A stretch of DNA of 58,329 nt from an uncultured Bdellovibrionales bacterium (GTDB taxonomy: Bacteria > Bdellovibrionota_C > UBA2361 > OMII01), in the NCBI GenBank assembly GCA_964654585.1, contig CAZZJR010000004.1, forward strand, positions 13,157 through 71,485, written 5' to 3'. Made by a program: the position numbers and the translations under genes. Position 1 is the stretch's first letter; every line of letters begins with the position of its first letter. The notes under the pieces were generated by a model. It was not told where the DNA came from, searched no databases, and saw only the letters and a list, made by a program, of their open reading frames with translations. Positions 4,861 through 45,581 of the stretch are shown here, piece after piece.

Positions 4861-5442
4861 ATGGCTGAGAGCGCATTCGCCGGAAAAGAGGAGCTGCAGG
4901 AGCTTAAGGCAAGAGGGGTAGTATTTAGCTCGCCGCTAGCTACTCGGTCCGTCGTCCTGGCAGCGCTGCTTGGCTCAAGTGTAGCCGGTTGGGAATGGGT
5001 TACATCGGCGCCAGCGCCGGAGACGCTGCCGGCGATGATTGAACTGGCGCGAAGAGTAGGGCTCGCGGCAGTCGTGCTGTGCGCAGTTACCGTTGCGGCA
5101 ACGCTTGTCGTTACTTTGGCCTTCAACGGCTTCACGCTATCCGCAGGTTTTCTCTCACTCAAGATTCGCCCCGTGCGGCGAGAGAGCGTGTGTATAACCC
5201 TGGCGAGTGGGGTGCTTGGCGCCTCGGTGGGCTCTTTGCTCGCCTACGCATTCGCGGGCGAGCTGTTCCTGTTGCTCAGGACCACTGACGCAGCTTCTCT
5301 GGGAGCTAGCCTTGGCCGGCTGGCCTTGAGGCTTGCCAAAGTAGTTGCCCTTGGAGCGGTTGGGGTGGCGGTGATAGTGACACCGGTCACCAGGGCGCGT
5401 TTTCTCTGGCTTCACCGGTCCCGGAAGGGTGTGCGCGAGTAG
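4861..5442 (+). CDS. sctU: SctU/FlhB-like protein, transmembrane domain only, 193 aa
   Basis: N-terminus KEELQELKARGVVFSSPLAT resembles FlhB/YscU KxxxAReeGqvaxSxel; four hydrophobic segments; ends at the post-TM4 helix (TRARFLWLHRSRKGVRE); no NPTH domain; tandem TAGTAG stop. Confidence 0.68.
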   Translation: MAESAFAGKEELQELKARGVVFSSPLATRSVVLAALLGSSVAGWEWVTSAPAPETLPAMIELARRVGLAAVVLCAVTVAATLVVTLAFNGFTLSAGFLSLKIRPVRRESVCITLASGVLGASVGSLLAYAFAGELFLLLRTTDAASLGASLGRLALRLAKVVALGAVGVAVIVTPVTRARFLWLHRSRKGVRE

Positions 5443-5542: not shown

Positions 5543-5791
5543 ATGTCCACAACCATCGGGAGTCCCCCGGATCCATTTTCCCTGTCGCCTCTGCTCTCGC
5601 TCCTGCCATCGTGCGGCTCGGTTTCGCGCCTCGAAGGGATGGTATCTTCTCTCTTTGCCCGTCAAGAGAAGGTGCTGCAGCTCCGCGAGCAGGGCGGTAG
5701 TAAGGAGATTGAGCGTCGTCTTGCCTGTGAGGAGGCGATGCTGCGGCAAGTTCTCGATTGGCTCTCGGCCAAGAGCGGAGGGGGTGAGTAA
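5543..5791 (+). CDS. Small hypothetical protein, 82 aa
   Basis: ATG at 5543; stop overlaps the next start (TAATG); helical C-terminal half. Confidence 0.6.
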   Translation: MSTTIGSPPDPFSLSPLLSLLPSCGSVSRLEGMVSSLFARQEKVLQLREQGGSKEIERRLACEEAMLRQVLDWLSAKSGGGE

Positions 5792-15500: not shown

Positions 15501-17921
15501 ATGTGTCAGGCCCTGTGCAGAGCCGCCCAGCGGGTGCGGCAGACGCTTCTGGTCAGCGCAGCAGCTTTTGCGTGCGGCGTTGACTGGTCCGAGTCTGCAG
15601 CGCAAGAGCTGCGGGTGGTGCCTGGCGAGTACATTGTGACGCTGCCTGCGCGTGCGTCAGGCAAGAGCGTTACAGCTGCCGCTTCGAGCCCAAACTTTTC
15701 ATCCTCGATGGTTGGTGTTGCTGACGTGCTGAACGGCGAGGCCCTAGTCGTGCGGGCTCCCGGTAACGGCGTGATGCGCGCGGCGACAGCTGCTGCAGAT
15801 GGCTCTGTGCCGTACCGAGCCGAGCACGACCTCTGTAAGGCGATCCTTGCCGAGGGGCGAGCCGAGAGCTGCTCCCCCAACTTTGTTGTCCGGGCCCTGG
15901 CTGTTCCCAACGACCCCCAGCTGTCGCAACTGTGGGGTCTGAGCGAAGCGAGCGGAATCAATGCGCCGCGGGCTTGGGACCTCTTCACCGGGTCAAGCTC
16001 GATCGTTGTGGCGGTGATCGACACAGGGATAGACTACAATCACCCGGACCTGGCCGCGAACATGTGGAGAAATCCGGGAGAGATCGCGAGCAACGGGGTT
16101 GACGACGATGGTAACGGATACGTCGACGACCTGTACGGAATTAATGCTCGAACTGGCGCGGCACAGCCTGGAAATCCGCTGGATGACCACTACCACGGGA
16201 CACACGTAGCAGGAACCATCGGCGCTGTGGGCAACAATGGAATAGGCGTCGTGGGGGTCAATCAGCGCGTGAAGATGATGGCGCTCAAGTTCCTCTCGTC
16301 AACTGGCAGCGGCAGCCTATCTGACGCGATCCGGGCGATCGACTACGCTACCATGATGAAGAACGACTACGGGGTGAACGTCCGGGTTTCGAACAATTCG
16401 TGGGGCGGCGGAGGTTACTCGGCCGCATTGGAGAATGCTATCAAACGCGCCCGAAATGCGGGGATCATCTTCGTGGCGGCGGCTGGAAACTCCAGTGTAG
16501 ACACTGACTCAGAACCGAGCTACCCATCAGGATACGATGTGGACAATGTCGTGTCGGTCGCCGCTATCGACAGCTCGCACAACCTTGCGACCTTTTCCAA
16601 TTACGGCGCCACGACGGTTGATATCGCCGCGCCGGGAGTCGATATTCGCAGCACCATGCCGACTTCGCAGTACGGCAAGTTATCGGGTACGTCGATGGCA
16701 ACGCCGCACGTAGCCGGAGCGCTCGCGCTCTTGCTGGGTCGGGAGCCAGGGCTTAGCTACCTCGAGGCTGTAGACCGGTTGTACCTCTCTGGGGTGACCA
16801 GGGCATCCCTGGTCGACATACCCACCGGGGTGTCTCTTGTGCGAACTCAACGAACTCTAAACGTCGCACGGATGCTCTACAACGAAACAGCGCCCCTGCC
16901 GTCCCTGCCCCCGAACCAGGTTCCGTGCGGGTACAGCTTCCAGTCGGCTAACCTGCTTGCGGGCGGCGAAGTGGACACGGCAGCCGATGAGGCCCCGATC
17001 GTCAACCAGACTGATGAAGGGAGCTTCTACCAAATTGACCTGCCGTTCTCCTTCCAGTTCTTCCGGGAGAGCGTCAACAGAATCTGGCTCTCGCCCAACG
17101 GGATCGTCTACACCAAGTCGCCGCTGGGGCTTGATTACGTTGTGAGCGCTAAGGCGCCGAAAAACTCTATCGCGGCGCTGCACACTGACCTCATTCCCCG
17201 AGCGGCGGATCAGGGCGTCAGGGTAGCTGTCTCGGATAACAAGGTAACGGTGATGTGGAGGTCCGAACACTACGGACTCCCGGGTCAGGGGGTCATCACT
17301 GTTCGTTTGACGATACGCGCAGATGGTACCTATTCATCGTCCGCGCACTTCGGTTCGGATGGGCTCAATTACGCTCTCAAGAATCAGGTTCTCGGTAATC
17401 CATTCGAATCGACCCCGACCGACGGCCGCGCGCTGGTCGGAGTGACCGGGGCACTCTCAACGTTCTTCTCGGTTCTTGACCTGGCTGCCACCCAGACCGC
17501 CCTGACTTCATCCTCAAGCGAGGCACTGGCTTTGGGGGCGGGGATGACCACGAGCTGTGCGGTCGCGCCACCGCCCCAGGATGGAGACTCAGAGCCCGTA
17601 ATCACAGGGGTGGTCATCAGCCAAACCGGTGCCGGCCGTTTAAGTGTGCCGGCACAGGTGGCTCTCTACGGGTCGGGGTCGGGTAGTGTCCCGGTGACGT
17701 TCAGGGTTAACTCCCGCACCTGCCGAAGTACGGTGCCGTTCAACCTAAGCGATGGCACTGCACGGGTTAGGTTACGGGTTCCGGCAGGCGTACGGGGGTT
17801 GACCGCGTCCGCCTCGAGTGCGAGCGATTCAATTCGTTTCCGTTGGTCGGCAGGAGCGGGGGCAGGTGCGAGCGACTCAACTCGCTGCGCCAGGCTCCTG
17901 AGGAGTGTTACCCCCTTCTAA
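15501..17921 (+). CDS. Secreted S8 (subtilisin-like) serine protease with C-terminal beta-rich domains, 806 aa
   Basis: Catalytic triad motifs VAVIDTGID, HYHGTHVAGTI, SGTSMATPHVAG; oxyanion AAAGN; prodomain VPGEYIV. Confidence 0.93.
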   Translation: MCQALCRAAQRVRQTLLVSAAAFACGVDWSESAAQELRVVPGEYIVTLPARASGKSVTAAASSPNFSSSMVGVADVLNGEALVVRAPGNGVMRAATAAADGSVPYRAEHDLCKAILAEGRAESCSPNFVVRALAVPNDPQLSQLWGLSEASGINAPRAWDLFTGSSSIVVAVIDTGIDYNHPDLAANMWRNPGEIASNGVDDDGNGYVDDLYGINARTGAAQPGNPLDDHYHGTHVAGTIGAVGNNGIGVVGVNQRVKMMALKFLSSTGSGSLSDAIRAIDYATMMKNDYGVNVRVSNNSWGGGGYSAALENAIKRARNAGIIFVAAAGNSSVDTDSEPSYPSGYDVDNVVSVAAIDSSHNLATFSNYGATTVDIAAPGVDIRSTMPTSQYGKLSGTSMATPHVAGALALLLGREPGLSYLEAVDRLYLSGVTRASLVDIPTGVSLVRTQRTLNVARMLYNETAPLPSLPPNQVPCGYSFQSANLLAGGEVDTAADEAPIVNQTDEGSFYQIDLPFSFQFFRESVNRIWLSPNGIVYTKSPLGLDYVVSAKAPKNSIAALHTDLIPRAADQGVRVAVSDNKVTVMWRSEHYGLPGQGVITVRLTIRADGTYSSSAHFGSDGLNYALKNQVLGNPFESTPTDGRALVGVTGALSTFFSVLDLAATQTALTSSSSEALALGAGMTTSCAVAPPPQDGDSEPVITGVVISQTGAGRLSVPAQVALYGSGSGSVPVTFRVNSRTCRSTVPFNLSDGTARVRLRVPAGVRGLTASASSASDSIRFRWSAGAGAGASDSTRCARLLRSVTPF

Positions 17922-17995: not shown

Positions 17996-19288
17996 ATGAC
18001 TGAGATCGCATCACCTTTCTTTCCCGACCTTGCTCCCCAGCTTGACCGATACGCAACACTGATAGCCGCTCACGGTCTCAACGTGCAGCCGGGGCAGCTC
18101 GTCCAGGTAATGGGGGAGAGCTACCACCGCCCACTCTACCAGCGGCTGCTGCGCGAGCTGTATCGCCGCGGCGCCGGCTTCGTGCACGTTGAACTCTCGG
18201 ATCCACTGCTGCAGCGCATCAGGATCCAGGAGTCCCAGCCGCAGTTCCTACGGAGCACACCCGGCTTCTACTCAGCTAAGTTCCGGGAGCTAGTGGACTC
18301 TGGAGCGGCTAACCTCAAGGTGCTGGGCCCAGAGTTTCCAACCTACCTTGCAGACCTCCCCACACAGTCGGTGAACGAGGTTCGCAAATCCGCCTACCAA
18401 GCGGCGAAGTACTTCTACAACGAGGGTATTGAGCGCTCAAAGGTGCACTGGTGTGTAGTCGCCGCAGCTACCCCGGGCTGGGCTGCACGGCTCTTCCCCA
18501 GCCTCTCTCCCCGCGATGCCGAGGCTCGGCTGTGGGGTGAGATCTTTCGCATCTGTCGGGTCGACCGCCCGAACTTTCTTGAGCTGTGGGAGGCGCACAA
18601 CAAGCTGCTGCACGCCCGTGCGCGGCGGCTGACAGAGCTGAAGATCAAGGAGCTGCACTTTGAGGGGCCTGGTACTGACCTAGTCGTCGGGCTATCGGAG
18701 CTGGCGCTCTTTAAGGGGGGTTCAGACCTCGCCCCGACTGGACATAGCTTCGAGCCGAACCTGCCGACTGAGGAGTGCTTTACGACGCCTGATTGGCGAG
18801 CGACCCGTGGAACCGTCGCTGCCACGAGGCCCTTTCTGGTCAATGGCACCTTGGTCCGCGACTTAACGCTCACCTTCACGAATGGTGAAATCTCGCATTT
18901 TGAGTGTCGCGCGGGAGGGGACGCCCTGCGCTCATACTTGGAGAGTGATGCGGGCGCGAAGAAGCTGGGAGAAGTGGCACTAGTCGGCACCGATTCGCCA
19001 GTGTTCCAGAGCGGTTTGGTATTCGAGGAGATATTGTTCGACGAGAATGCGGCCTGCCACATCGCGGTTGGGTCGGCGTACAAGGGGTGTCTGCGCGGGG
19101 GCGCAGGCATGAGTGACGTCGAATGTGCTGATATCGGCTGTAATTCCAGCTCAGTGCACACCGACATCATGATCTCTTCGGAGCAGGTTAGTGTAACCGC
19201 GAATCTCTTCAGTGGAGAGCGATTGATGCTGATCGATAGAGGTCGATGGACAGCAGATCTCGCCCCGCAGGGATCGTCGAGAGCATGA
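17996..19288 (+). CDS. M29-family aminopeptidase (AmpS/AmpT-type)
   Basis: HGLNVQPGQLV, FEGPGTDLVVGL, PNLPTEECFTTPD, LGEVALV, LFDENAACHIAVGSAY, SSVHTDIMI motifs. ATG at 17996. Confidence 0.92.
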   Translation: MTEIASPFFPDLAPQLDRYATLIAAHGLNVQPGQLVQVMGESYHRPLYQRLLRELYRRGAGFVHVELSDPLLQRIRIQESQPQFLRSTPGFYSAKFRELVDSGAANLKVLGPEFPTYLADLPTQSVNEVRKSAYQAAKYFYNEGIERSKVHWCVVAAATPGWAARLFPSLSPRDAEARLWGEIFRICRVDRPNFLELWEAHNKLLHARARRLTELKIKELHFEGPGTDLVVGLSELALFKGGSDLAPTGHSFEPNLPTEECFTTPDWRATRGTVAATRPFLVNGTLVRDLTLTFTNGEISHFECRAGGDALRSYLESDAGAKKLGEVALVGTDSPVFQSGLVFEEILFDENAACHIAVGSAYKGCLRGGAGMSDVECADIGCNSSSVHTDIMISSEQVSVTANLFSGERLMLIDRGRWTADLAPQGSSRA

Positions 19289-19901
19289 CGCGCAACCTTT
19301 CCGGTGCAGAGCAACATCAAATAAGTACTTGCCAACACGTTCGTTGGGTGTCACCATTTTTTCAGTGCTCGGTCTCTCACTGACTGCAGAAAATCTAGCG
19401 GCCCTCATTAAGAGTCGCAGTCGGCAGTGAGTGAGCGACCAAACCAAGGGTGAGCGATGCTTGTCCGGGCAAGGAGCAGGCACCAGCTTCGTGAAGTAGG
19501 ATACGAGGCGGTGATGTTGAAGGAAGGTTGGTCGGTAGCTTGGCGGTGGAGGAAGGTAGTAGTTGTCCCCTCCGGTGCTATCGCGAGCTGCGAGGATCCG
19601 CGGCGAGGTGAGAAAGCTCTTCCCTTGTCTCGAAAAATCTTGCAGCATTCGTAGAGAAGAATTGTCAAGCGATGCATCTTATCTTCCGATAAGGCAAAGC
19701 AGACAGTCCCTCAAGTAATTTGCGCAGTGTCTTCTACACGATTGGAGGTAAGGCGCGAGAGTTGAGGGGATAAAAGTTTCGGGTATACGGCATACTTTTG
19801 GGGAGGGTTTTCCCGGCTCGCGAGAGGTGCTGAGGCTCGATTAACAAACGTAGATAGCGGTTAGAACTAGTTCTTCCGCAATCAACACTGGAGAAAAAAA
19901 A

Positions 19902-19982
19902 ATGGCAACTAAGAAGGCAAAGAAGACCACCAAGAAGGCTGCTAAGAAGAAGACCACTAAGAAGGCTTCAAAGAAGAAGTAA
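19902..19982 (+). CDS. 26-aa Lys/Ala/Thr-rich histone-H1-like microprotein MATKKAKKTTKKAAKKKTTKKASKKK
   Basis: GGAG RBS plus A-rich spacer, ATG at 19902, TAA at 19980-19982, uniform AAG/GCT/ACY codons, own strong terminator. Below the ORF-track size cutoff. Confidence 0.75.
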   Translation: MATKKAKKTTKKAAKKKTTKKASKKK

Positions 19983-20002
19983 GCAGCGCTTTGCGTCTTA
20001 CG

Positions 20003-20045
20003 GCGCCCTCCGACGCTTTCGAGTGTCGGAGGGCGCTTTTTTTTT
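20003..20045 (+). terminator. Intrinsic terminator after the Lys-rich microprotein
   Basis: GCGCCCTCCGAC-gct-TTCG-agt-GTCGGAGGGCGC stem followed by 9 T. Confidence 0.92.
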
Positions 20046-20138
20046 GCCTCGCCTGACCCTCGCATTGTGCGCGTAAATGACAATTTACAAACGAAGTTAG
20101 AAAAAAACTAGCGGAGGTGATGCGCTGGGGATGCAGCG

Positions 20139-21629
20139 TTAGTTACCAAGGGCGCTGCGCAGAAGAAGCATCCACTGGCGCTCGTCCGCTGGGGTGGCCG
20201 AAGACGCGCCGTTGTCGGAAGCTCCGACCTGCAGAACCGTACTCGGACTGACGTAGGTGCGGGATCGGCACCAGGTCCGTGAGAAGAGGGCTATGTTTGC
20301 CGGGTCAGTTGGGCCCGGGGGCATAGGCGCCGAGAAAGTAACCGTATTAGGGTTCTGCTCTGGCGTTAGAGTTACCTGGCGTGAAGCGACACGGTACGTG
20401 GGCCCGAACCCCCTGCCGTTTCGCAGGGCCTGTGCCATCAAACCAACCGTACACGGCTCCGCCCGTAGGCTGGTCGACCGAATCACCGCAAAAAAGGTCT
20501 GAGCAGTGGTGCCCTCGAGCGAAATGCTCAGATCGTGGTCGGGCAACCGGGCGATACAGCGCATGCGGGAGCTGATCGCCGACTTCATAGCGGCAAGAGA
20601 GAGCTGTGAGAAGCCGTTGTTGTTCGCCGAAAGAACCGGATTCATCACCGAGTTTGGAACCGAATCGTGGTAGCTCCCCAAGTTGTGCGCGATTTCGTGG
20701 GCAAACAGCAAGGGCTGAAGCGGCGGCGAAATGGCGCGGGAAAGCCCGATGTTAAACCTCGCTCGACCTGAGCAGGCAGTGCCCACGTAGGCGATTCCGA
20801 TGGTGCGGCTGACTAGGGCGCGCCCGGTGAAGAGGTGCAGCACGTCGTAGTTTTCCGTCTCCGCCATGGACTGTTGCTGGAACTGGGTAAGAAGCGAACT
20901 CGCTTCGATCGGCGAAGGCTGTGCTGCGCCGCTTGTTTGGACTTTTTGGCTCACCAGGCGTAACCGTAATCCCAGAGGGGCCGCATACAGCACCTCGGCG
21001 GCGTGCACAGTGGCAGCGATGTAGTCATTCGTGTTGGCACCGTAGAGCGTGTAGAACTCATAGTCGGCGCGCGTTGCTACCTCTAGGACCCTCTGCGGGT
21101 TAAAGGGAACGCTGCCCTGTCCAGCCGCGGAGACCCCTCCGCTGCCTTTTTCGTGCGAGGCAACGCGCCCGACTCGGTGTGCATGCCGACTACCGCACGG
21201 TAGGGACCGTTGCGGATTTCGGCTCACACGCACGCGAGCCGGCAGAAGGCCATCCGCTGAGGCGACCAGGGAGAACGAGACACTGGAGGGAACACCCCAG
21301 CGAGAAGAGGTAAAGAACACGATGTAGCTGTCACCGATGCGACTGGCAGCGACAGCATTGGGATTCCGCCTACCTCCCCGTGGACGACTCTCTCCTCGCA
21401 GGTGAAGAAGGGATGCGCTGAGCTGTTGCTGGGAATCGACCTTAAGCTCAAAGCGCTCAATGCCTTCTTTGGTGGCCACTGAAAGAAAGAGGCGCTCTGT
21501 AACCCCTGGGTTCGCTAACGCCTGGAACGTCCCCAGGATCTTTGGCTCGGCGACGGCGCTATTCGAGCAGCAGGTCGCGAGGAGCATGTAAGAGAGCGTG
21601 ACAAATAGCGATGAAGAACTGCGCCGCAT
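20139..21629 (-). CDS. Secreted M12B/reprolysin-like (metzincin) zinc metalloprotease
   Basis: Signal peptide; HLFTG...TIGIAYVGTAC; FAHEIAHNLGSYHD (HExxHxxGxxHD); Met-turn SVMNP. ATG at 21629 preferred. Confidence 0.85.
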   Translation of the reverse strand: MRRSSSSLFVTLSYMLLATCCSNSAVAEPKILGTFQALANPGVTERLFLSVATKEGIERFELKVDSQQQLSASLLHLRGESRPRGGRRNPNAVAASRIGDSYIVFFTSSRWGVPSSVSFSLVASADGLLPARVRVSRNPQRSLPCGSRHAHRVGRVASHEKGSGGVSAAGQGSVPFNPQRVLEVATRADYEFYTLYGANTNDYIAATVHAAEVLYAAPLGLRLRLVSQKVQTSGAAQPSPIEASSLLTQFQQQSMAETENYDVLHLFTGRALVSRTIGIAYVGTACSGRARFNIGLSRAISPPLQPLLFAHEIAHNLGSYHDSVPNSVMNPVLSANNNGFSQLSLAAMKSAISSRMRCIARLPDHDLSISLEGTTAQTFFAVIRSTSLRAEPCTVGLMAQALRNGRGFGPTYRVASRQVTLTPEQNPNTVTFSAPMPPGPTDPANIALFSRTWCRSRTYVSPSTVLQVGASDNGASSATPADERQWMLLLRSALGN

Positions 21630-21763
21630 TGTTGATCCATGGGATACGAGCCGCACAAGCGGCTGGAGGGGATGTATCAAAGTGCTGCTGCCTAAGATAC
21701 CCGCTTCCAGTGGGGAAATGGGACTGGTCGGGACGGATTCGAACAGGACCAGACAGGAGGAGA

Positions 21764-41524: not shown

Positions 41525-43417
41525 GTGGTAGCTATTACACAGAGCGAGGAGCCGTCTCAGCAATCCGAAGATTCCACGGTCAGCGAAGCCTCGACTGAAA
41601 CAGGCGTCGCCCCACCCCGTCAAAGCGCCGGTCGAACCCTTATCAGTCGGCAGCCGGAGCGCAGTATCCCATCGTCGACAGTACGCACACTCCTGGGGCT
41701 TTCATTGCTCGCCCTCGCGGTCGTCGCCTACACACTAACGGAGAGCGGTCTAGAGCCGGAGCGACAGCAGATGTTATCGCTGTCCCTGTCCGGTGTCGCG
41801 CTTGTGGTTGCTCTCTTTGAAGCTACCTCTATTCTCTCGACGAGGGACAGGCTGGAGAGCCCGCTGGAACTTTTCGCGCCGGCTGGAGTGTTTCTGCTAG
41901 CGCTTGGGGGTTTGGGAGATGGTTATGTTCCCTCTTTTAGCTCATCGATTTTGATCTCCACTGGGCCCGTACTTGCGGCCGGGGTTCTGTTGCTTGCTCG
42001 CGCTGCGGTTCCGAGTGCGGTTCTCACGGCAAGCACTGATCATCTCTTACTTCCACCGGGCGTAGAGGTCGGAGAGGCCGCCAAGGGGGAGGCGCTCTCG
42101 CTTTCCAGTGGTGTGATCGTAGCGGCTGATTCTCGGATAGAGCGAGGTTGCTGCAGTGTTCTTGAGCGACAGCTCTCTCCGGAGACACGTTTTCGCATCA
42201 AGGAGGAGGGCGATGTCCTCTTCGCAGGCTCCGAGGTAATCGGTGGGTCTGCCGAGGCAGTGGCGCTTTCAAGCTCGGAGAATTCGTGCTTGCGGAGCCT
42301 TGAGAAGCTTGTGTTCTCAAATGTCGAAAAAGCGGGCGCATCGCTCCATCAGGAGGACCTACGTTCTCGCAAAGCGACCGCGTACGTCTTGGTGTTCGTA
42401 TCTGTGGCCTGCGCAATCCTGTGGGATGAGCGAGTAGGTCGCCCATGGGATACGCTGGCAGCGTCAGGACTGGTGCTATTTGCGGGGATTGTCTGCCAGC
42501 TTGCAGATATTTTGTACTCGCGCCAGCGCTCTATGGTTCGGCGCTGGGCTAGGCAGGGATTCATTGCTGCCTCTGAGAGCGCTGTTCGGGAGTTGGCATC
42601 TGCGACAAAAGCCCTGTTTGACCCCAGCCGAGTTGACCTCGGCTCCTTAGTTCGGGTTCGAGAGCTGGAGATCCTCGACGATCGAGTCGGAAGGCAGGAA
42701 TTGACAGCTTGCCTCGCGACTCTCTTGGGACGGGCAGAGGAAGTTGCGTTGGTTGCGGCCGGTGATTTCTGCCAGAAAGAGTGCTCAACCGTGGTGCCTG
42801 AGCGGGTCCTCGAACTCCACGAGATCGCCGGCATGGGAATTAGTGGAAGAGTTAAGGGCGTATCAGTTCTAATAGGAACCGAGGAGCTGCTGCTCGATAG
42901 GGGAGTGCTCATTCATCCATCTGAAAGCAACGTCGAGAGCGCTGACAACGAGCGTCCGCTGCTAGTGGCGGTTGGTGGAGAGCTTGTCGCCCGGTTCTGG
43001 GTAGTGTTTGGACAGCGGGCGCTGGTCGAGGAGGGGGCTGACCACGCGGTGTGGCACGGCTTGGTTTCTGCGGGGATCTCGGTTGGTGTTCCGGGGGAGA
43101 TTAGTCCGACGACGATCCTCGTTCGGGGTCAGGAATCAGATGTGCTGGGCCGTTCTGCAGAGATACAGGTGTCGCATTTTGCAGGGGAGCGGTTCGAACT
43201 CCCGCGCTCGACAGTTATCGCGTTGACACGCAACCTGAGCGACCTTCCGTCGCTCATTGCCGAATCCCACCGGTACCTGCGGCTAGTGGAAAGGGCTCGG
43301 ATACTGGTAGCGTTCGGAGCCTTCCTGTCGGTCGCGACAGTCTTTTTCGGCTTCTTCTCCCCGCTTGTGGCGAGTGTCTCTCTTGGGCTCGTGGCTGCTG
43401 TCTTCGCCCTTCTGTAG
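41525..43417 (+). CDS. Degenerate P1B-type (heavy-metal) ATPase-like membrane protein
   Basis: Colinear P1B scaffold (VAADSRIERG..V.E, GDVLFAGS, GFIAASESAVRELA, EIAGMGISG.V.G..VLIG) with catalytic motifs altered. Start uncertain (41462-41525). Confidence 0.7.
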   Translation: MVAITQSEEPSQQSEDSTVSEASTETGVAPPRQSAGRTLISRQPERSIPSSTVRTLLGLSLLALAVVAYTLTESGLEPERQQMLSLSLSGVALVVALFEATSILSTRDRLESPLELFAPAGVFLLALGGLGDGYVPSFSSSILISTGPVLAAGVLLLARAAVPSAVLTASTDHLLLPPGVEVGEAAKGEALSLSSGVIVAADSRIERGCCSVLERQLSPETRFRIKEEGDVLFAGSEVIGGSAEAVALSSSENSCLRSLEKLVFSNVEKAGASLHQEDLRSRKATAYVLVFVSVACAILWDERVGRPWDTLAASGLVLFAGIVCQLADILYSRQRSMVRRWARQGFIAASESAVRELASATKALFDPSRVDLGSLVRVRELEILDDRVGRQELTACLATLLGRAEEVALVAAGDFCQKECSTVVPERVLELHEIAGMGISGRVKGVSVLIGTEELLLDRGVLIHPSESNVESADNERPLLVAVGGELVARFWVVFGQRALVEEGADHAVWHGLVSAGISVGVPGEISPTTILVRGQESDVLGRSAEIQVSHFAGERFELPRSTVIALTRNLSDLPSLIAESHRYLRLVERARILVAFGAFLSVATVFFGFFSPLVASVSLGLVAAVFALL

Positions 43418-43664
43418 CAGTTCCCAGTGTCCCCGAAACGGTCTGCTTACTAATGGTCCTCTAGAACGGGTGCGTCCCGTGACTGCCGGAGTCACTCCTC
43501 GGGGGCAGGTGCTCCCTTTAGTCGTTTTTGGCAAGAAAGAAACCGGCCCCGCGTAGGCTTGAGCACCGAACACAACGGACCGGCATCCGAATTAAGAAGG
43601 TCAACTTCCAGCGGCCGGGCCTTGGGGCCCTAACCCCCCGGAAGTTCATTAGTAGGAGGCGAAG

Positions 43665-44027
43665 ATGGCTTGCGGAAATATCGAGGTTCGAAAAGGTTCT
43701 GAGTCGGTTTTCGCCACATCGGTTGTTGAAGAACTTCTTGATGGAAACAAGGGGTACGCACACGGCCCAGAGCGGGGACTTCTCTCAGCCCTACTTTTCG
43801 ACGGGGTGCAGGCGTACATCCACTACGCTCTCGCTTCCTCACTCAAGGAGAAGACCCGGTACGTCGAGGCGTTCAACTGGGTCATGGATACAGGGGTTGA
43901 GTACGCATTCTCCTTCAATAACGTGTGCGAGGCGCTCGGGCTAAATCCTGAGTATGTTCGCTTTGGGTTGGCCAACGCTTCAACAAGTCTACTTGCCGAG
44001 GCCGGGAAATCGCGCCGCAACTTCTAG
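43665..44027 (+). CDS. Conserved small hypothetical protein (PExxLL...FSFxxVCEALGL family), paralog A
   Basis: RBS AGGAGG; strong motif similarity to 44876-45166. Confidence 0.8.
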   Translation: MACGNIEVRKGSESVFATSVVEELLDGNKGYAHGPERGLLSALLFDGVQAYIHYALASSLKEKTRYVEAFNWVMDTGVEYAFSFNNVCEALGLNPEYVRFGLANASTSLLAEAGKSRRNF

Positions 44028-44041
44028 TGCGCGGCAGTAGG

Positions 44042-44263
44042 TCACTCCGCATCTTCTGGCTGGTCCGGAGAGGTTACCGCTGGACCAGCCGCGATGCGGT
44101 AGCCCTCGCTAAACCACTTCGAGAGGTCCTGCATCTTGCAATTGTGCGAACAGAACGGACCGTTGGGACCTAGCTCAGCAGGGATCTCCCTGCCGCAGTG
44201 CCGGCATGCTATCAGGCCTCTAGAGCCATCCGCCTTCCGTTTTCCCCTCGCCGATTCAGACAT
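44042..44263 (-). CDS. yacG: DNA gyrase inhibitor YacG
   Basis: CRHC...PFCSHNCKMQDLSKWFSEGYRI zinc-finger motif. Confidence 0.9.
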   Translation of the reverse strand: MSESARGKRKADGSRGLIACRHCGREIPAELGPNGPFCSHNCKMQDLSKWFSEGYRIAAGPAVTSPDQPEDAE

Positions 44264-44304
44264 GTTCGCAACCCACCTGAATTGTGAAGAGCTGCCAAGT
44301 GCAG

Positions 44305-44565
44305 CTATTTATCTCTGAGTCGAAGCTCTCGAATACCAGTAGCGTCCTGGGCGATGAGCTCTAGGTGCTGCAGCGTGCCGCCCTTTCGTAGGTACGAATC
44401 GTCCTCCGGTGTGCCGGGTTCTATAAAGAGTATTCCAGACTCGAAGTGGTACGCCTTAACGCGCCTGATGCGGTCTAGGAGACCCAACTGGAGCTTTTCG
44501 TCTAATTCCGCGAGCAGCTTCTCCCACAATTCAGGGTTGTTTCCTTTAGCCGCGGCATCAGACAT
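44305..44565 (-). CDS. Small hypothetical protein, 86 aa
   Basis: ATG at 44565 after GAGG; typical coding composition; co-oriented with yacG. Confidence 0.72.
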   Translation of the reverse strand: MSDAAAKGNNPELWEKLLAELDEKLQLGLLDRIRRVKAYHFESGILFIEPGTPEDDSYLRKGGTLQHLELIAQDATGIRELRLRDK

Positions 44566-44783
44566 AGCGCACCTCACATTTCGCTAACCGCTCAAGACCC
44601 GTCTAACAACGGGGGCGAGATAGCCCTTTTTGTTACCGGAAGCCCATTCATACAGCTCCAGAACCCTCTGCACCGGCTAAACCGCCCGGTCCGAGGCAAC
44701 ACCCATCCGGCTGAGAGGCGCAAACGCGCCCTCATCTTCTAATTATAGAGCCCTGCAAAGTTTGGGGGGAAGCAGTAAAAACT

Positions 44784-44830
44784 TAAGGGCGCAGAATAAC
44801 GGCTTAAAAAGCCGATACTCTGCGCCCTTA
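44784..44830 (-). terminator. Long imperfect hairpin, probable terminator of the 44876-45166 gene
   Basis: TAAGGGCGCAGA/TCTGCGCCCTTA outer stem plus CGGCTT/AAGCCG inner stem; GTTTTT follows on the minus strand. Confidence 0.6.
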
Positions 44831-44875
44831 CGAGCAAGAAACCCCGCCCTTCGGCCGGGGAATCTCCCGCCGCAT

Positions 44876-45166
44876 TTAGGCAATAGCGTCGGAAGCCGCG
44901 TACTCGCGAGCCTGGGCGTCAGCCTGGCGCGAGATCGCTTTGCGGAGGCTCTCTGAATCGAGATCGAGCGCCTCACAGATGAAACGGAACGACAGCGGAG
45001 CATCCGTTGGCTCGTCGTCTAACAGCCAAGCGCGAGCACCGTCTCGTACCTCGCCTTCGCCCCCGATGAAGTCGTGGATCGCCCTCTGGAGAACCGCTGC
45101 AAGTAATCGCAGCTCAGGAATCGAGCTACCCGGGGTCGGAACATCAGAATTTGACCAGAATTTCAT
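44876..45166 (-). CDS. Conserved small hypothetical protein (PExxLL...LSFxxICEALDL family), paralog B
   Basis: ATG at 45166 with AAGGGA RBS; motif similarity to 43665-44027. Confidence 0.8.
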   Translation of the reverse strand: MKFWSNSDVPTPGSSIPELRLLAAVLQRAIHDFIGGEGEVRDGARAWLLDDEPTDAPLSFRFICEALDLDSESLRKAISRQADAQAREYAASDAIA

Positions 45167-45581
45167 ATTTGATTGTCCCTTCAATAAGTAAGTAAATAAG
45201 TGTCGCTCCCTGCCTGCTGGCGAGCCAGCTCAACAATTCGCAACTTGTGTAACAAAGCGGCTACTTCATCCATGAGCCCAGTCACTCCCTGGAATCCGAT
45301 TCCACGCTACAAGAGTGGAATACAGGAACAGGACAACGAGACGACAGGGCCGAGGCGGCTAGTAACCAAGCGAGCGAACCACCAATCGAACAACAGAGAA
45401 GTTGGGAGACCCAATCATGGAACCCCTTCGTCTCGGTCATCCTGCATTCGGAGGATCCTAAACTCATCGATCGAACTACGATCAATGCTTCAACGTTTCC
45501 TACCGCGCGCGTCGGGCCTAATCAAATAAATGTTGCCATTCAATTGACCGAGCCGCTGCTCATCCGAACTTCTGAGCCCGC

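What the first reader, a model, noticed from the sequence alone, without database searches (positions are those of the whole stretch)
19890..20045. Stand-alone 26-aa, 14-Lys histone-H1/protamine-like microprotein
Seen: GGAG RBS, ATG, the peptide MATKKAKKTTKKAAKKKTTKKASKKK, a stop, and the strongest terminator in the window; all 14 Lys use AAG. It is missed by the ORF track. Established: KKAA/KKTT repeats typify bacterial H1-like nucleoid condensers (Chlamydia Hc1/Hc2, Bordetella BpH1, AlgP tail). Inference: a minimal nucleoid-compacting or polyanion-binding peptide, which would suit a highly condensed dispersal or attack-phase cell.
Basis: partly seen in the sequence, partly recalled or inferred. 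Interest (0 to 1): 0.65.

Follow-up and report, generated by a model that had tools for sequence, protein, structure and literature searches.

The report
Conserved polylysine micro-gene with giant leader
A real, highly transcribed and so far unannotated gene for a 26-residue peptide that is more than half lysine sits at the end of a long, folded RNA leader in uncultured freshwater Bdellovibrionota. It most likely makes a small polycation that coats RNA or DNA.

Summary
Window 19902-19982 (+) encodes MATKKAKKTTKKAAKKKTTKKASKKK, with a GGAG 8 nt upstream and a 16-bp terminator with a T9 tail.

It is a gene:
- It is single-copy in 32 of 35 genomes of the genus and in the sister genus, and in several other families of the order.
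- The product is always 21-28 aa, and every indel is a multiple of three.
- 73% of codon differences are synonymous.
- SD, ATG and stop are kept, and the terminator stem covaries.

Metatranscriptome contigs cover this unit but not its neighbours, at a depth like EF-Tu's.

It is not simply "stand-alone". The ORF ends a roughly 0.7-kb transcript. Its first ~570 nt form a conserved chain of hairpins behind an ECF-like promoter motif. No Rfam family matches.

No Pfam, NCBIfam or PDB relative exists, and the peptide is absent from a 15-billion-protein collection. Look-alike MAxKK...KKK* micro-ORFs occur in at least 12 phyla.

Best reading: a translated polycation that binds nucleic acids by charge, like an H1 tail or a protamine, with the leader giving stability or feedback. 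The specific nucleoid and attack-phase role is untested.

The parts
19294..19321 (+). Promoter-like block: AACCTT (19294-19299), a 17-nt spacer, then TCAAA (19317-19321). It resembles the ECF/sigmaE-type -35 GAAC / -10 TCAAA consensus. This is inferred, not mapped.
   Evidence: The block GAAACCTT-N~17-(A)TCAAA-N6-8-CTTGCCA is conserved in all 33 family genomes. It also occurs in three other families of the order, 231-619 nt upstream of the micro-ORF. No sigma-70-type site lies in 19000-21000. The resemblance to the sigmaE consensus comes from my own knowledge. A genome scan for the motif gave no regulon.
19328..19889 (+). Conserved, heavily structured 5' leader RNA of about 560 nt. It begins with the CTTGCCA block, where other families and some genus members have a 5' hairpin that is not evident in this window, followed by a chain of hairpins.
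   Evidence: The region is not protein-coding: tblastn hits fall in all frames and only in the nearest relatives. Conserved blocks are separated by variable hairpins. In a 10-species clade the consensus fold is -238 kcal/mol against -112 +/- 6.5 for column shuffles, with 37 compensatory pairs against a mean of 15 and a maximum of 22. RNA contigs run from the leader into the ORF. No Rfam family matches.
19375..19437 (+). Long leader hairpin: TCTCACTGAC (19375-19384) pairs with AGTGAGTGAGC (19427-19437) around a variable insert.
   Evidence: The complementary conserved blocks GCTCACTGAC / GGTGAGTGAGC are present across the genus. The enclosed insert varies from about 12 to more than 100 nt.
19678..19693 (+). 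Leader hairpin CTTATC-TTCC-GATAAG.
   Evidence: It is conserved with compensatory changes: CTATC/GATAG, TTGTC/GACAA and CTTATC/GATAAG.
19774..19904 (+). 3' domain of the leader (covariance model R1). It holds the P1 closing helix (19776-19783 with 19835-19845), the P2 hairpin (19853-19883), then the unpaired SD and the ATG.
   Evidence: 85.5% of cells are paired, against 28-45% when partners are slid. Six of eight P2 pairs change on both sides. The covariation score is 0.236 against 0.052 or less. R1 hits exactly once in 33 genomes, the same ones that hold the micro-ORF, at E 1e-12 to 1e-22.
19890..19893 (+). Shine-Dalgarno GGAG, 8 nt before the ATG, in an A-rich unpaired tract.
   Evidence: It is invariant in all orthologues at 7-10 nt from the ATG.
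19902..19982 (+). Micro-ORF of 26 codons plus TAA: MATKKAKKTTKKAAKKKTTKKASKKK (14 Lys, net charge about +14).
   Evidence: Orthologues are 21-28 aa and all length differences are multiples of 3. There are 598 synonymous against 218 non-synonymous pairwise codon differences in the C-terminal 13 codons, against 20% synonymous expected. Variable sites by codon position 1/2/3 number 3/1/7.
19983..20001 (+). Short 3' UTR spacer. In most relatives it is a CUU/UCUU-rich tract complementary to the AAG-rich ORF.
   Evidence: The pairing is predicted only.
20002..20045 (+). Intrinsic terminator: 16-bp stem, 4-nt loop and a T9 tail.
   Evidence: The stem sequence differs between species but the hairpin is always kept. 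RNA contigs end inside it, at 19995-20028.

Best explanation
Window 19902-19982 is a genuine, translated and strongly expressed gene for a 26-residue polylysine-type microprotein (54% Lys; the rest Ala, Thr and Ser; net charge about +14).

It is transcribed as a monocistronic RNA of roughly 0.7 kb. Transcription probably starts near 19326 behind an ECF-like promoter motif and ends at the terminator at 20045. The first ~570 nt form a conserved chain of hairpins. The SD and the A/G-rich ORF are left unpaired.

The peptide has no hydrophobic residues, no signal peptide and tolerates in-frame length changes. It therefore most likely acts as a soluble, intrinsically disordered polycation. It would bind cellular polyanions (ribosomal and other RNA, DNA, possibly polyphosphate) non-specifically by charge, neutralising and condensing them as a histone H1 tail or a protamine does.

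The leader most likely stabilises the mRNA, lets the product feed back on its own synthesis, or both, because free polycation is toxic.

Shown: the gene's anatomy, conservation, coding signature, transcription and leader structure. Inferred: translation itself, the transcription start, the target polyanion and the role of the leader.
For: Gene reality:
- It is single-copy in 32 of 35 genomes of the genus, in the sister genus, and in families f17, f12, f11, f21 and f30. The reversed control pattern matched 1 of 124 genomes.
- The position is syntenic, between the aminopeptidase and a convergent metzincin or Omp85 gene.
- SD, ATG and stop are invariant, and all indels are multiples of 3.
- 73% of codon differences are synonymous against about 20% expected.
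- Lys codon use (91.5% AAG) matches the ribosomal-protein genes (92.6%).

Expression:
- At least 21 metatranscriptomic runs hold part of the 186-nt stretch.
- In a 19.5-kb stretch only this unit appears in the RNA contigs of runs X24 and X23.
- Depth is 6.5 against 4.4 for the organism's EF-Tu piece in X24.
- In a relative, three runs give contigs at depth 15-25 that run about 400 nt of leader into the ORF, with nothing on the flanking genes.

Leader structure.

Polycation reading:
- The composition is like that of H1-type tails. The same genome puts Lys/Ala/Pro tracts on HU and topoisomerase I.
- Low-complexity sequence and length drift (21-28 aa) argue against a precise structural fit.
Against: - There is no ribosome-profiling or peptide evidence, so translation rests on comparative signals only.
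- The RNA evidence is unstranded assembler contigs. Depth is a crude measure and the true 5' end is unmapped. In a relative the contigs start about 100 nt downstream of the predicted start.
- Nothing distinguishes DNA from RNA, ribosome or polyphosphate as the target.
- Two fairly complete genomes of the genus (G069, G007) have neither ORF nor leader, and their synteny is broken, so the gene may be dispensable.
- AAG-repeat DNA is open in several frames by construction.
- Nucleotide conservation of the ORF could partly reflect RNA-level constraints. Ala and Thr codons avoid G- or C-ending forms far more than ribosomal-protein genes do.
Confidence: 0.55

Rival explanations
1. The peptide is a dedicated ribosomal or ribosome-associated microprotein. 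It would be analogous to bS22, bL37, bTHX or eL41, filling an rRNA pocket.
For: - Its size (24-28 aa) and charge match those proteins.
- Its mRNA level is comparable to EF-Tu's.
- It has ribosomal-protein-like Lys codon use.
- A long structured leader is typical of autogenously regulated ribosomal-protein mRNAs (my own knowledge).
- It is near-universal in the genus.
Against: - No similarity to any PDB chain, including ribosomal ones. The best hit is E 0.91, to a Lys tract of a ubiquitin-conjugating enzyme.
- The sequence is pure K/A/T/S low complexity, with in-frame length changes and free A/T swaps within one genus. Known polybasic ribosomal peptides are Arg-rich with hydrophobic residues and fixed length (my own knowledge).
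- It is absent from two genomes of the genus.
- It is not linked to ribosomal-protein operons.
Confidence: 0.15
2. The RNA is the main product. It would be a large structured regulatory or scaffold RNA of about 0.7 kb, with the 26-codon ORF as a secondary or stabilising feature. Staphylococcus RNAIII, with its 26-aa delta-haemolysin ORF, is such a dual-function RNA.
For: - The leader is about seven times longer than the ORF, strongly structured and covarying.
- It is abundant in metatranscriptomes.
- Synonymous sites of the ORF are unusually constrained in base composition.
- Pairing is predicted between the ORF and the 3' UTR, and between the SD spacer and the U-tail.
Against: - Across families the middle of the leader is not conserved and its length varies from 231 to 619 nt. 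The ORF, the SD and the 5' block persist.
- The ORF shows protein-level purifying selection.
- Micro-ORFs of the same type occur in many phyla. Whether they carry leaders was not examined here.
Confidence: 0.1
3. The peptide is exported or injected as a polycationic weapon. It would permeabilise the outer membrane or flocculate nucleic acids in prey or competitors.
For: - Polycationic peptides flocculate ribosomes and DNA and perturb Gram-negative envelopes (PMC13342938; bioRxiv 10.1101/2023.03.09.531820).
- The lineage is Bdellovibrionota, and the window is said to carry a type III secretion-like operon (earlier AI notes, not tested here).
Against: - There is no signal peptide and no hydrophobic or amphipathic face.
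- There is no linkage to secretion genes. The neighbours are an aminopeptidase and a convergent metzincin or Omp85 gene.
- The same kind of gene occurs in clearly non-predatory lineages such as Bradyrhizobium, Acidobacteriaceae, Nitrospira and archaea.
Confidence: 0.05
4. The ORF is a Lys-rich leader peptide of a transcription attenuator that senses charged tRNA-Lys.
For: A run of one amino acid's codons is followed within 20 nt by a strong terminator.
Against: - No co-directional gene follows the terminator in the window or in any relative. The next gene is always convergent.
- No alternative anti-terminator pairing is conserved.
- The peptide sequence outside Lys is itself conserved.
Confidence: 0.02
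5. The frame is a chance open frame in a purine-rich non-coding element and is not translated.
For: AAG repeats are stop-free in four of six frames. There is no direct translation evidence.
Against: - The SD is invariant at the correct spacing, and ATG and stop are invariant.
- There are only in-frame indels.
- Variation is dominated by third positions.
- The ORF and SD are the most conserved stretch of the 850-nt gap across the genus.
Confidence: 0.03

Closest known systems
Lys-rich tails of linker histone H1 and bacterial 'H1-like' proteins (chlamydial Hc1/Hc2, Pseudomonas AlgP, Bordetella BpH1)
   Same: The composition is the same (Lys with Ala, Thr, Ser and some Pro, in KKxx-type repeats). 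Both show low complexity and length drift by repeat-like units. The presumed mode of action is also shared: charge-driven binding of DNA or polyphosphate (Hc2 lysine-rich pentamers: PMC2848022; AlgP and polyphosphate granules: PMC9239181).
   Different: It is 26 aa against 125 to more than 300 aa and has no globular or other domain. No Pfam or NCBIfam model matches. It is a free-standing gene with a 570-nt structured leader. Homology cannot be shown.
Polybasic ribosomal microproteins bS22, bL37, bTHX and eL41
   Same: Size of about 24-33 aa, very high positive charge, frequently missed by annotation, and high expression.
   Different: There is no sequence match to any solved chain. The peptide is Lys-only, with no Arg or aromatic residues, and its length and spacers vary within a genus. 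Ribosome association is untested.
Protamines and protamine-like sperm proteins
   Same: Short, disordered, highly cationic peptides that neutralise and condense nucleic acid.
   Different: Protamines are Arg-rich, eukaryotic and developmentally restricted. Here the peptide is Lys-rich and bacterial, and condensation has not been shown.
Staphylococcus aureus RNAIII/hld and other dual-function RNAs
   Same: A highly structured RNA of several hundred nucleotides that also encodes a 26-aa peptide.
   Different: There is no sequence or Rfam relationship. Here the ORF lies at the extreme 3' end and is the best-conserved part. A regulatory role for the RNA is not shown.
Stand-alone polylysine micro-ORFs flagged earlier in this scan (CPR bacteria, Binataceae, others; AI notes)
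   Same: These are 19-50 aa, start MA(x)KK, are at least 45% Lys/Arg, and have their own SD and terminator. They are unannotated and some have structured leaders. I re-found the class independently in at least 12 phyla.
   Different: The 450-620-nt leader (model R1) is specific to this family. Common descent of the class cannot be tested on such simple sequences.

Membership tests
Linker histone H1/H5 (Pfam PF00538) | Winged-helix globular domain flanked by basic tails | tested here: not met
   The product is 26 aa in all. Pfam gives 0 families at E <= 10 for four orthologues.
Chlamydial histone-like Hc1 (PF07432) / Hc2 (PF07382) | Match to the family profile; protein of 125-237 aa built of Lys-rich repeats | tested here: not met
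   There is no Pfam or NCBIfam match and the length is 21-28 aa. Only the composition is alike.
AlgP-type KPAA-repeat proteins | Long tandem KPAA repeats in a protein of more than 300 aa | tested here: not met
   The window peptide has no Pro. Some orthologues have a single KKPAKK. There is no tandem array.
Polybasic ribosomal microproteins (bS22, bL37, bTHX, eL41) | Sequence relationship to the solved ribosomal chains | tested here: not met
   A profile of 15 orthologues against all PDB chains gave only an E 0.91 hit, to a Lys tract of UBE2S.
Polybasic ribosomal microproteins (bS22, bL37, bTHX, eL41) | Stoichiometric presence in purified ribosomes | not testable with these tools
   This needs ribosome purification or cryo-EM.
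Amino-acid-sensing attenuator leader peptide | Terminator followed by co-directional regulated genes, and alternative anti-terminator pairing | tested here: not met
   The next gene is convergent in the window and in all 26 loci examined. No conserved alternative pairing was found.
Protein-coding gene (general) | SD plus start and stop conserved; indels in multiples of 3; excess of synonymous change | tested here: met
Protein-coding gene (general) | Direct evidence of translation (footprints or peptide) | not testable with these tools
   No Ribo-seq or proteome exists for this uncultured lineage.
Rho-independent terminator | G+C-rich hairpin followed directly by a U tract, conserved by covariation | tested here: met
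Any Rfam family (for the leader) | Covariance-model match at or near the gathering score | tested here: not met
   There are no hits at gathering thresholds. Only terminator-like and chance matches appear at E <= 10, in the window and in 30 relatives' loci.
Stand-alone polylysine micro-ORF class (undescribed in the literature I could search) | 19-50 aa, starts MA(x)KK, at least 45% Lys/Arg, own SD and terminator, no long in-frame upstream extension | tested here: met
   Window. Class: about 38 of 120 pattern hits in at least 12 phyla meet the same criteria.

The most novel reading that the evidence does not exclude
The ~0.7-kb transcript could be a self-contained ribonucleoprotein circuit. The structured leader would be the high-affinity binding platform for the polylysine peptide it encodes. 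This would buffer and feed back on a 'micro-protamine' that is the cell's bulk genetically encoded counter-ion for RNA and DNA. The window gene would then be one member of a pan-prokaryotic, unannotated class of such polycations. Each lineage may have evolved its own leader.
Probability: 0.15. Interest if true: 0.85.

Novelty: new variant of a known kind. Interest (0 to 1): 0.6.

Why it matters
If the peptide is made at the level its mRNA suggests, these bacteria carry a major cellular polycation that no annotation, protein database or proteomics workflow sees. It is too short for gene callers, and trypsin would destroy it.

Such a peptide would bear on how small bacterial cells neutralise and compact RNA and DNA. 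Look-alike genes in at least a dozen phyla, including cultivable Bradyrhizobium and Chitinophaga, make the question testable.

Independently, the 450-620-nt covarying leader is a new large structured RNA element with no Rfam family.

Tried and rejected
- The search for homologous proteins refuses queries under 40 aa.
- The six-frame protein-profile search was too insensitive. It missed the window's own copy, so I used a DNA pattern instead.
- An exact look-up of ten peptide forms found none.
- Pfam, NCBIfam and PDB profile searches found nothing.
- Rfam found nothing. A weak 'freshwater-2' match (16.5 bits, E 9.3) over P2 and the SD did not recur in relatives and is chance.
- MAFFT plus RNAalifold on the whole family alignment recovered only the closing helix, because the variable hairpins misalign. 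I scored hand-defined helices instead and folded one well-aligned clade with shuffle controls.
- The ECF-like motif gave only 11 genome hits, close to chance, with no coherent regulon. The promoter assignment therefore stays an inference.
- The idea of a polyamine surrogate is inconclusive. No spermidine synthase or nspC was found, but three Orn/Arg/DAP-decarboxylase genes are present, one of SpeA-like size, in a 90% complete MAG.
- No histone-fold gene was found.
- The apparent co-variation between the G in the SD spacer and the C in the terminator tail is confined to one clade. I did not count it as evidence.
- The antisense 80-aa ORF 19841-20083 is a by-product of the AAG repeats. It has no conserved start.
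- Structure prediction is not possible below 30 aa.
- Five literature searches found no description of ribosomally encoded polylysine microproteins in bacteria. The library is not exhaustive.

Full report
**Observation**

- GGAG lies at 19890-19893, followed by eight A's.
- The ATG is at 19902. Twenty-six codons give MATKKAKKTTKKAAKKKTTKKASKKK, and TAA is at 19980-19982.
- Twenty nucleotides later comes a 16-bp hairpin (20002-20037) followed by nine T's. Its fold energy is -36.7 kcal/mol, z -5.4.

The unit lies in an 850-nt gap. Upstream is an aminopeptidase gene that ends at 19288. Downstream is a convergent metzincin-like gene (20139-21680, minus strand).

The terminator is one of the two strongest hairpin-plus-T sites in the window: -32.8 kcal/mol against -34.9 at about 44781 on the minus strand.

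All 14 Lys codons are AAG, but this is the organism's norm for expressed genes. AAG is 78% of Lys codons in long ORFs and 92.6% in the EF-Tu and ribosomal-protein cluster.

Lys is 3.5% of the proteome against 54% here. This is also the top SD-preceded polybasic small ORF in the assembly.

**Is it a gene?**

A DNA search in relatives hit 24 of 25 genomes of the genus. In the more distant ones only the SD-plus-ORF segment matched.

A start/stop-anchored pattern found exactly one copy in several places:
- 32 of 35 genomes of the genus;
- the one genome of the sister genus;
- families f17, f12, f11 and f21 of the order;
- one genome of another order.

The reversed control pattern hit 1 of 124 genomes.

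All orthologues keep GGAG at 7-10 nt from the ATG. They encode 21-28 residues of the form MA(A/T)KK...KKKTTKKA(A/S)KKK and differ in length only by whole codons. Each is followed by a terminator whose stem sequence changes while the hairpin is kept.

In the gap-free C-terminal 13 codons there are 598 synonymous and 218 non-synonymous pairwise codon differences. That is 73% synonymous, against about 20% expected for random changes. Variable sites fall 3/1/7 on codon positions 1/2/3.

Synteny is kept: aminopeptidase, then a gap, then the micro-ORF, then a convergent metzincin or Omp85 gene.

Two genomes of the genus (G069, G007) have neither ORF nor leader and show a rearranged locus. The gene is therefore near-universal but perhaps not indispensable.

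The organism is an uncultured freshwater Bdellovibrionota. A same-genus contig is titled 'MAG: Bdellovibrionota bacterium' (L177), and the DNA holders are freshwater metagenomes.

**Expression**

At least 21 metatranscriptomic runs hold part of the 186-nt stretch.
- Laid on the window, RNA contigs cover 19861-20007 (X24, no differences over 19895-20007), 19895-20028 (X23), 19822-19995 (X25), and 19568-19746 plus 19761-19997 (X26, a relative). All stop in the terminator.
- Over 19.5 kb around the site this is the only piece present in X24 and X23. This excludes DNA carry-over.
- In X24 its depth (6.5) is similar to the one long piece of this organism's EF-Tu gene (4.4). The ribosomal-protein genes are not assembled.
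- In a congener (L012) three runs give contigs at depth 15-25. They run from about 400 nt upstream into the ORF, with nothing on the flanking genes.

Contigs are unstranded and depth is crude. Even so, the unit is clearly among the organism's most abundant mRNAs.

**The leader**

The gap upstream is not coding. Conserved blocks are separated by variable hairpins.

Two helices just upstream of the SD were scored.
- P1 is 19776-19783 with 19835-19845, and P2 is 19853-19883.
- Together they are 85.5% paired, against 28-45% when partners are slid.
- Six of eight P2 pairs change on both sides.

A covariance model of this 131-nt domain hits once in each of the same 33 genomes that have the ORF, and nowhere else in 124 genomes.

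For a 10-species clade the consensus fold of the whole leader is -238 kcal/mol, against -112 +/- 6.5 for column shuffles. It has 37 compensatory pairs, against a mean of 15 and a maximum of 22.

At the 5' edge lies the block GAAACCTT-N~17-TCAAA-N6-8-CTTGCCA (window 19294-19334). It is conserved in the family and also in families f17, f12 and f11, 231-619 nt upstream of the ORF. In those other families and in some genus members (L006, L014, L016) the CTTGCCA opens a hairpin with compensatory changes; in the window itself no such hairpin is evident.

I read this block as an ECF/sigmaE-like promoter followed by a 5'-terminal stem-loop. This is inference only:
- no sigma-70 site exists in 19000-21000;
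- the motif marks no regulon;
- in L012 the RNA contigs begin about 100 nt further down.

No Rfam family matches the leader.

The SD and the ORF are predicted to be unpaired. Ala and Thr codons in the ORF almost never end in G, and Ala codons almost never in C: GCG plus GCC is 1.2% against 48% in ribosomal-protein genes, and ACG is 2.6% against 42% (ACC remains at 31%). This would keep the coding RNA structure-free or reflect another RNA-level constraint.

**What it is like, and what it is not**

No Pfam, NCBIfam or PDB relative exists. None of ten peptide forms is in a 15-billion-protein collection.

The peptide is not a member of any of these groups:
- H1 (no globular domain);
- Hc1/Hc2 or AlgP (no profile match, one fifth or less of the length);
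- the bS22, bL37 or eL41 group (no sequence relation; Lys-only; variable length).

It is not an attenuator leader peptide, because the next gene is always convergent.

It does work like those tails on paper. The composition is pure K/A/T/S, the net charge is about +14, there is no hydrophobic face or signal peptide, and length drift is tolerated.

The same genome attaches similar Lys/Ala/Pro tracts to HU and to topoisomerase I. It has no detectable histone-fold gene.

About 38 of them are stand-alone MA(x)KK...KKK* ORFs of 19-28 aa, with an SD and no long upstream frame. They fall in:
- Acidobacteriota, Alpha- and Gammaproteobacteria, Nitrospirota and Planctomycetota;
- Verrucomicrobiota, Myxococcota, Dormiibacterota and Eisenbacteria;
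- Bdellovibrionota, Firmicutes and archaea.

Further look-alikes without an SD-like motif occur in Bacteroidota.

This agrees with earlier AI notes of this scan that describe such micro-genes elsewhere. I treated those notes as leads only.

Five literature searches found no description of such genes.

**Verdict**

It is a real, conserved, highly transcribed micro-gene. I put about 0.9 on it being a translated gene.

The most likely function, at about 0.55, is a soluble polycation that binds RNA or DNA by charge, with the long leader giving stability or feedback.

The rivals are:
- ribosomal microprotein, 0.15;
- RNA-centred dual-function transcript, 0.10;
- exported weapon, 0.05;
- attenuator or chance ORF, 0.05 or less together.

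Noticed in passing
own genome contig C62 (minus strand, about 4870-5308) and C111 (55-1654); outside the window: An HU-family protein carries a Lys/Ala/Pro-rich N-terminal extension (MAKKPAKKKVAKKIAKPAKKAPKGK...). A long ORF tentatively read as topoisomerase I (by eye from its N-terminal sequence, not checked against any family model) also holds a Lys-rich tract. The genome therefore also uses H1-like tracts fused to ordinary nucleoid proteins.
   Followed up: no
window 19983-20045 and 19890-19901; relatives: In most orthologues the 3' UTR holds a CUU/UCUU-rich tract complementary to the AAG-rich ORF. The terminator U-tail is complementary to the A-rich SD spacer, so folding predicts a closed-loop mRNA. 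The one apparent co-variation (G in the spacer with C in the tail) is confined to a single clade.
   Followed up: partly
L214 (G069:C2) and L215 (G007:C161): Two genomes of the genus lack both the leader and the micro-ORF. They have unrelated DNA downstream of the aminopeptidase gene. This is either true loss or relocation into unassembled sequence.
   Followed up: partly
L028:1403-1765 (minus), genome G028, another family of the order: A 120-aa ORF is made almost entirely of K/R/A/T repeats (MVHRRKIVMATKRKATKRKTAKKAATKKK...). It is a long H1/Hc2-like version of the same composition.
   Followed up: no
L158 (Candidatus Dormiibacterota), minus strand at 5748 and 6148: Two polylysine micro-ORFs (22 and 24 aa) lie about 400 nt apart on one contig. 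The class can be multi-copy.
   Followed up: no
L148, L191, L209, L210 (Methanosarcinales, Methanoperedens, an uncultured archaeon, Nitrosarchaeum): Look-alike MA(x)KK...KKK* micro-ORFs also turn up in archaeal MAGs.
   Followed up: no
window about 44735-44781 (minus): This is the strongest hairpin-plus-T terminator of the window (-34.9 kcal/mol). It lies about 95 nt downstream of the 102-aa ORF 44876-45184 (minus), inside a stretch of about 2 kb (43417-45544) that has only small ORFs.
   Followed up: partly
window 17843-17921: The listed TTG start of the aminopeptidase ORF overlaps the end of the subtilase-like gene (15501-17921) by 79 nt. The real start is probably the internal Met (MTEIASPFF...).
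   Followed up: no
window 19823-19904: There is a weak match (16.5 bits, E 9.3; gathering score 49.9) to the Rfam 'freshwater-2' motif over the P2 hairpin and the SD. It was not reproduced in 12 relatives' loci, so it is a chance match.
   Followed up: yes
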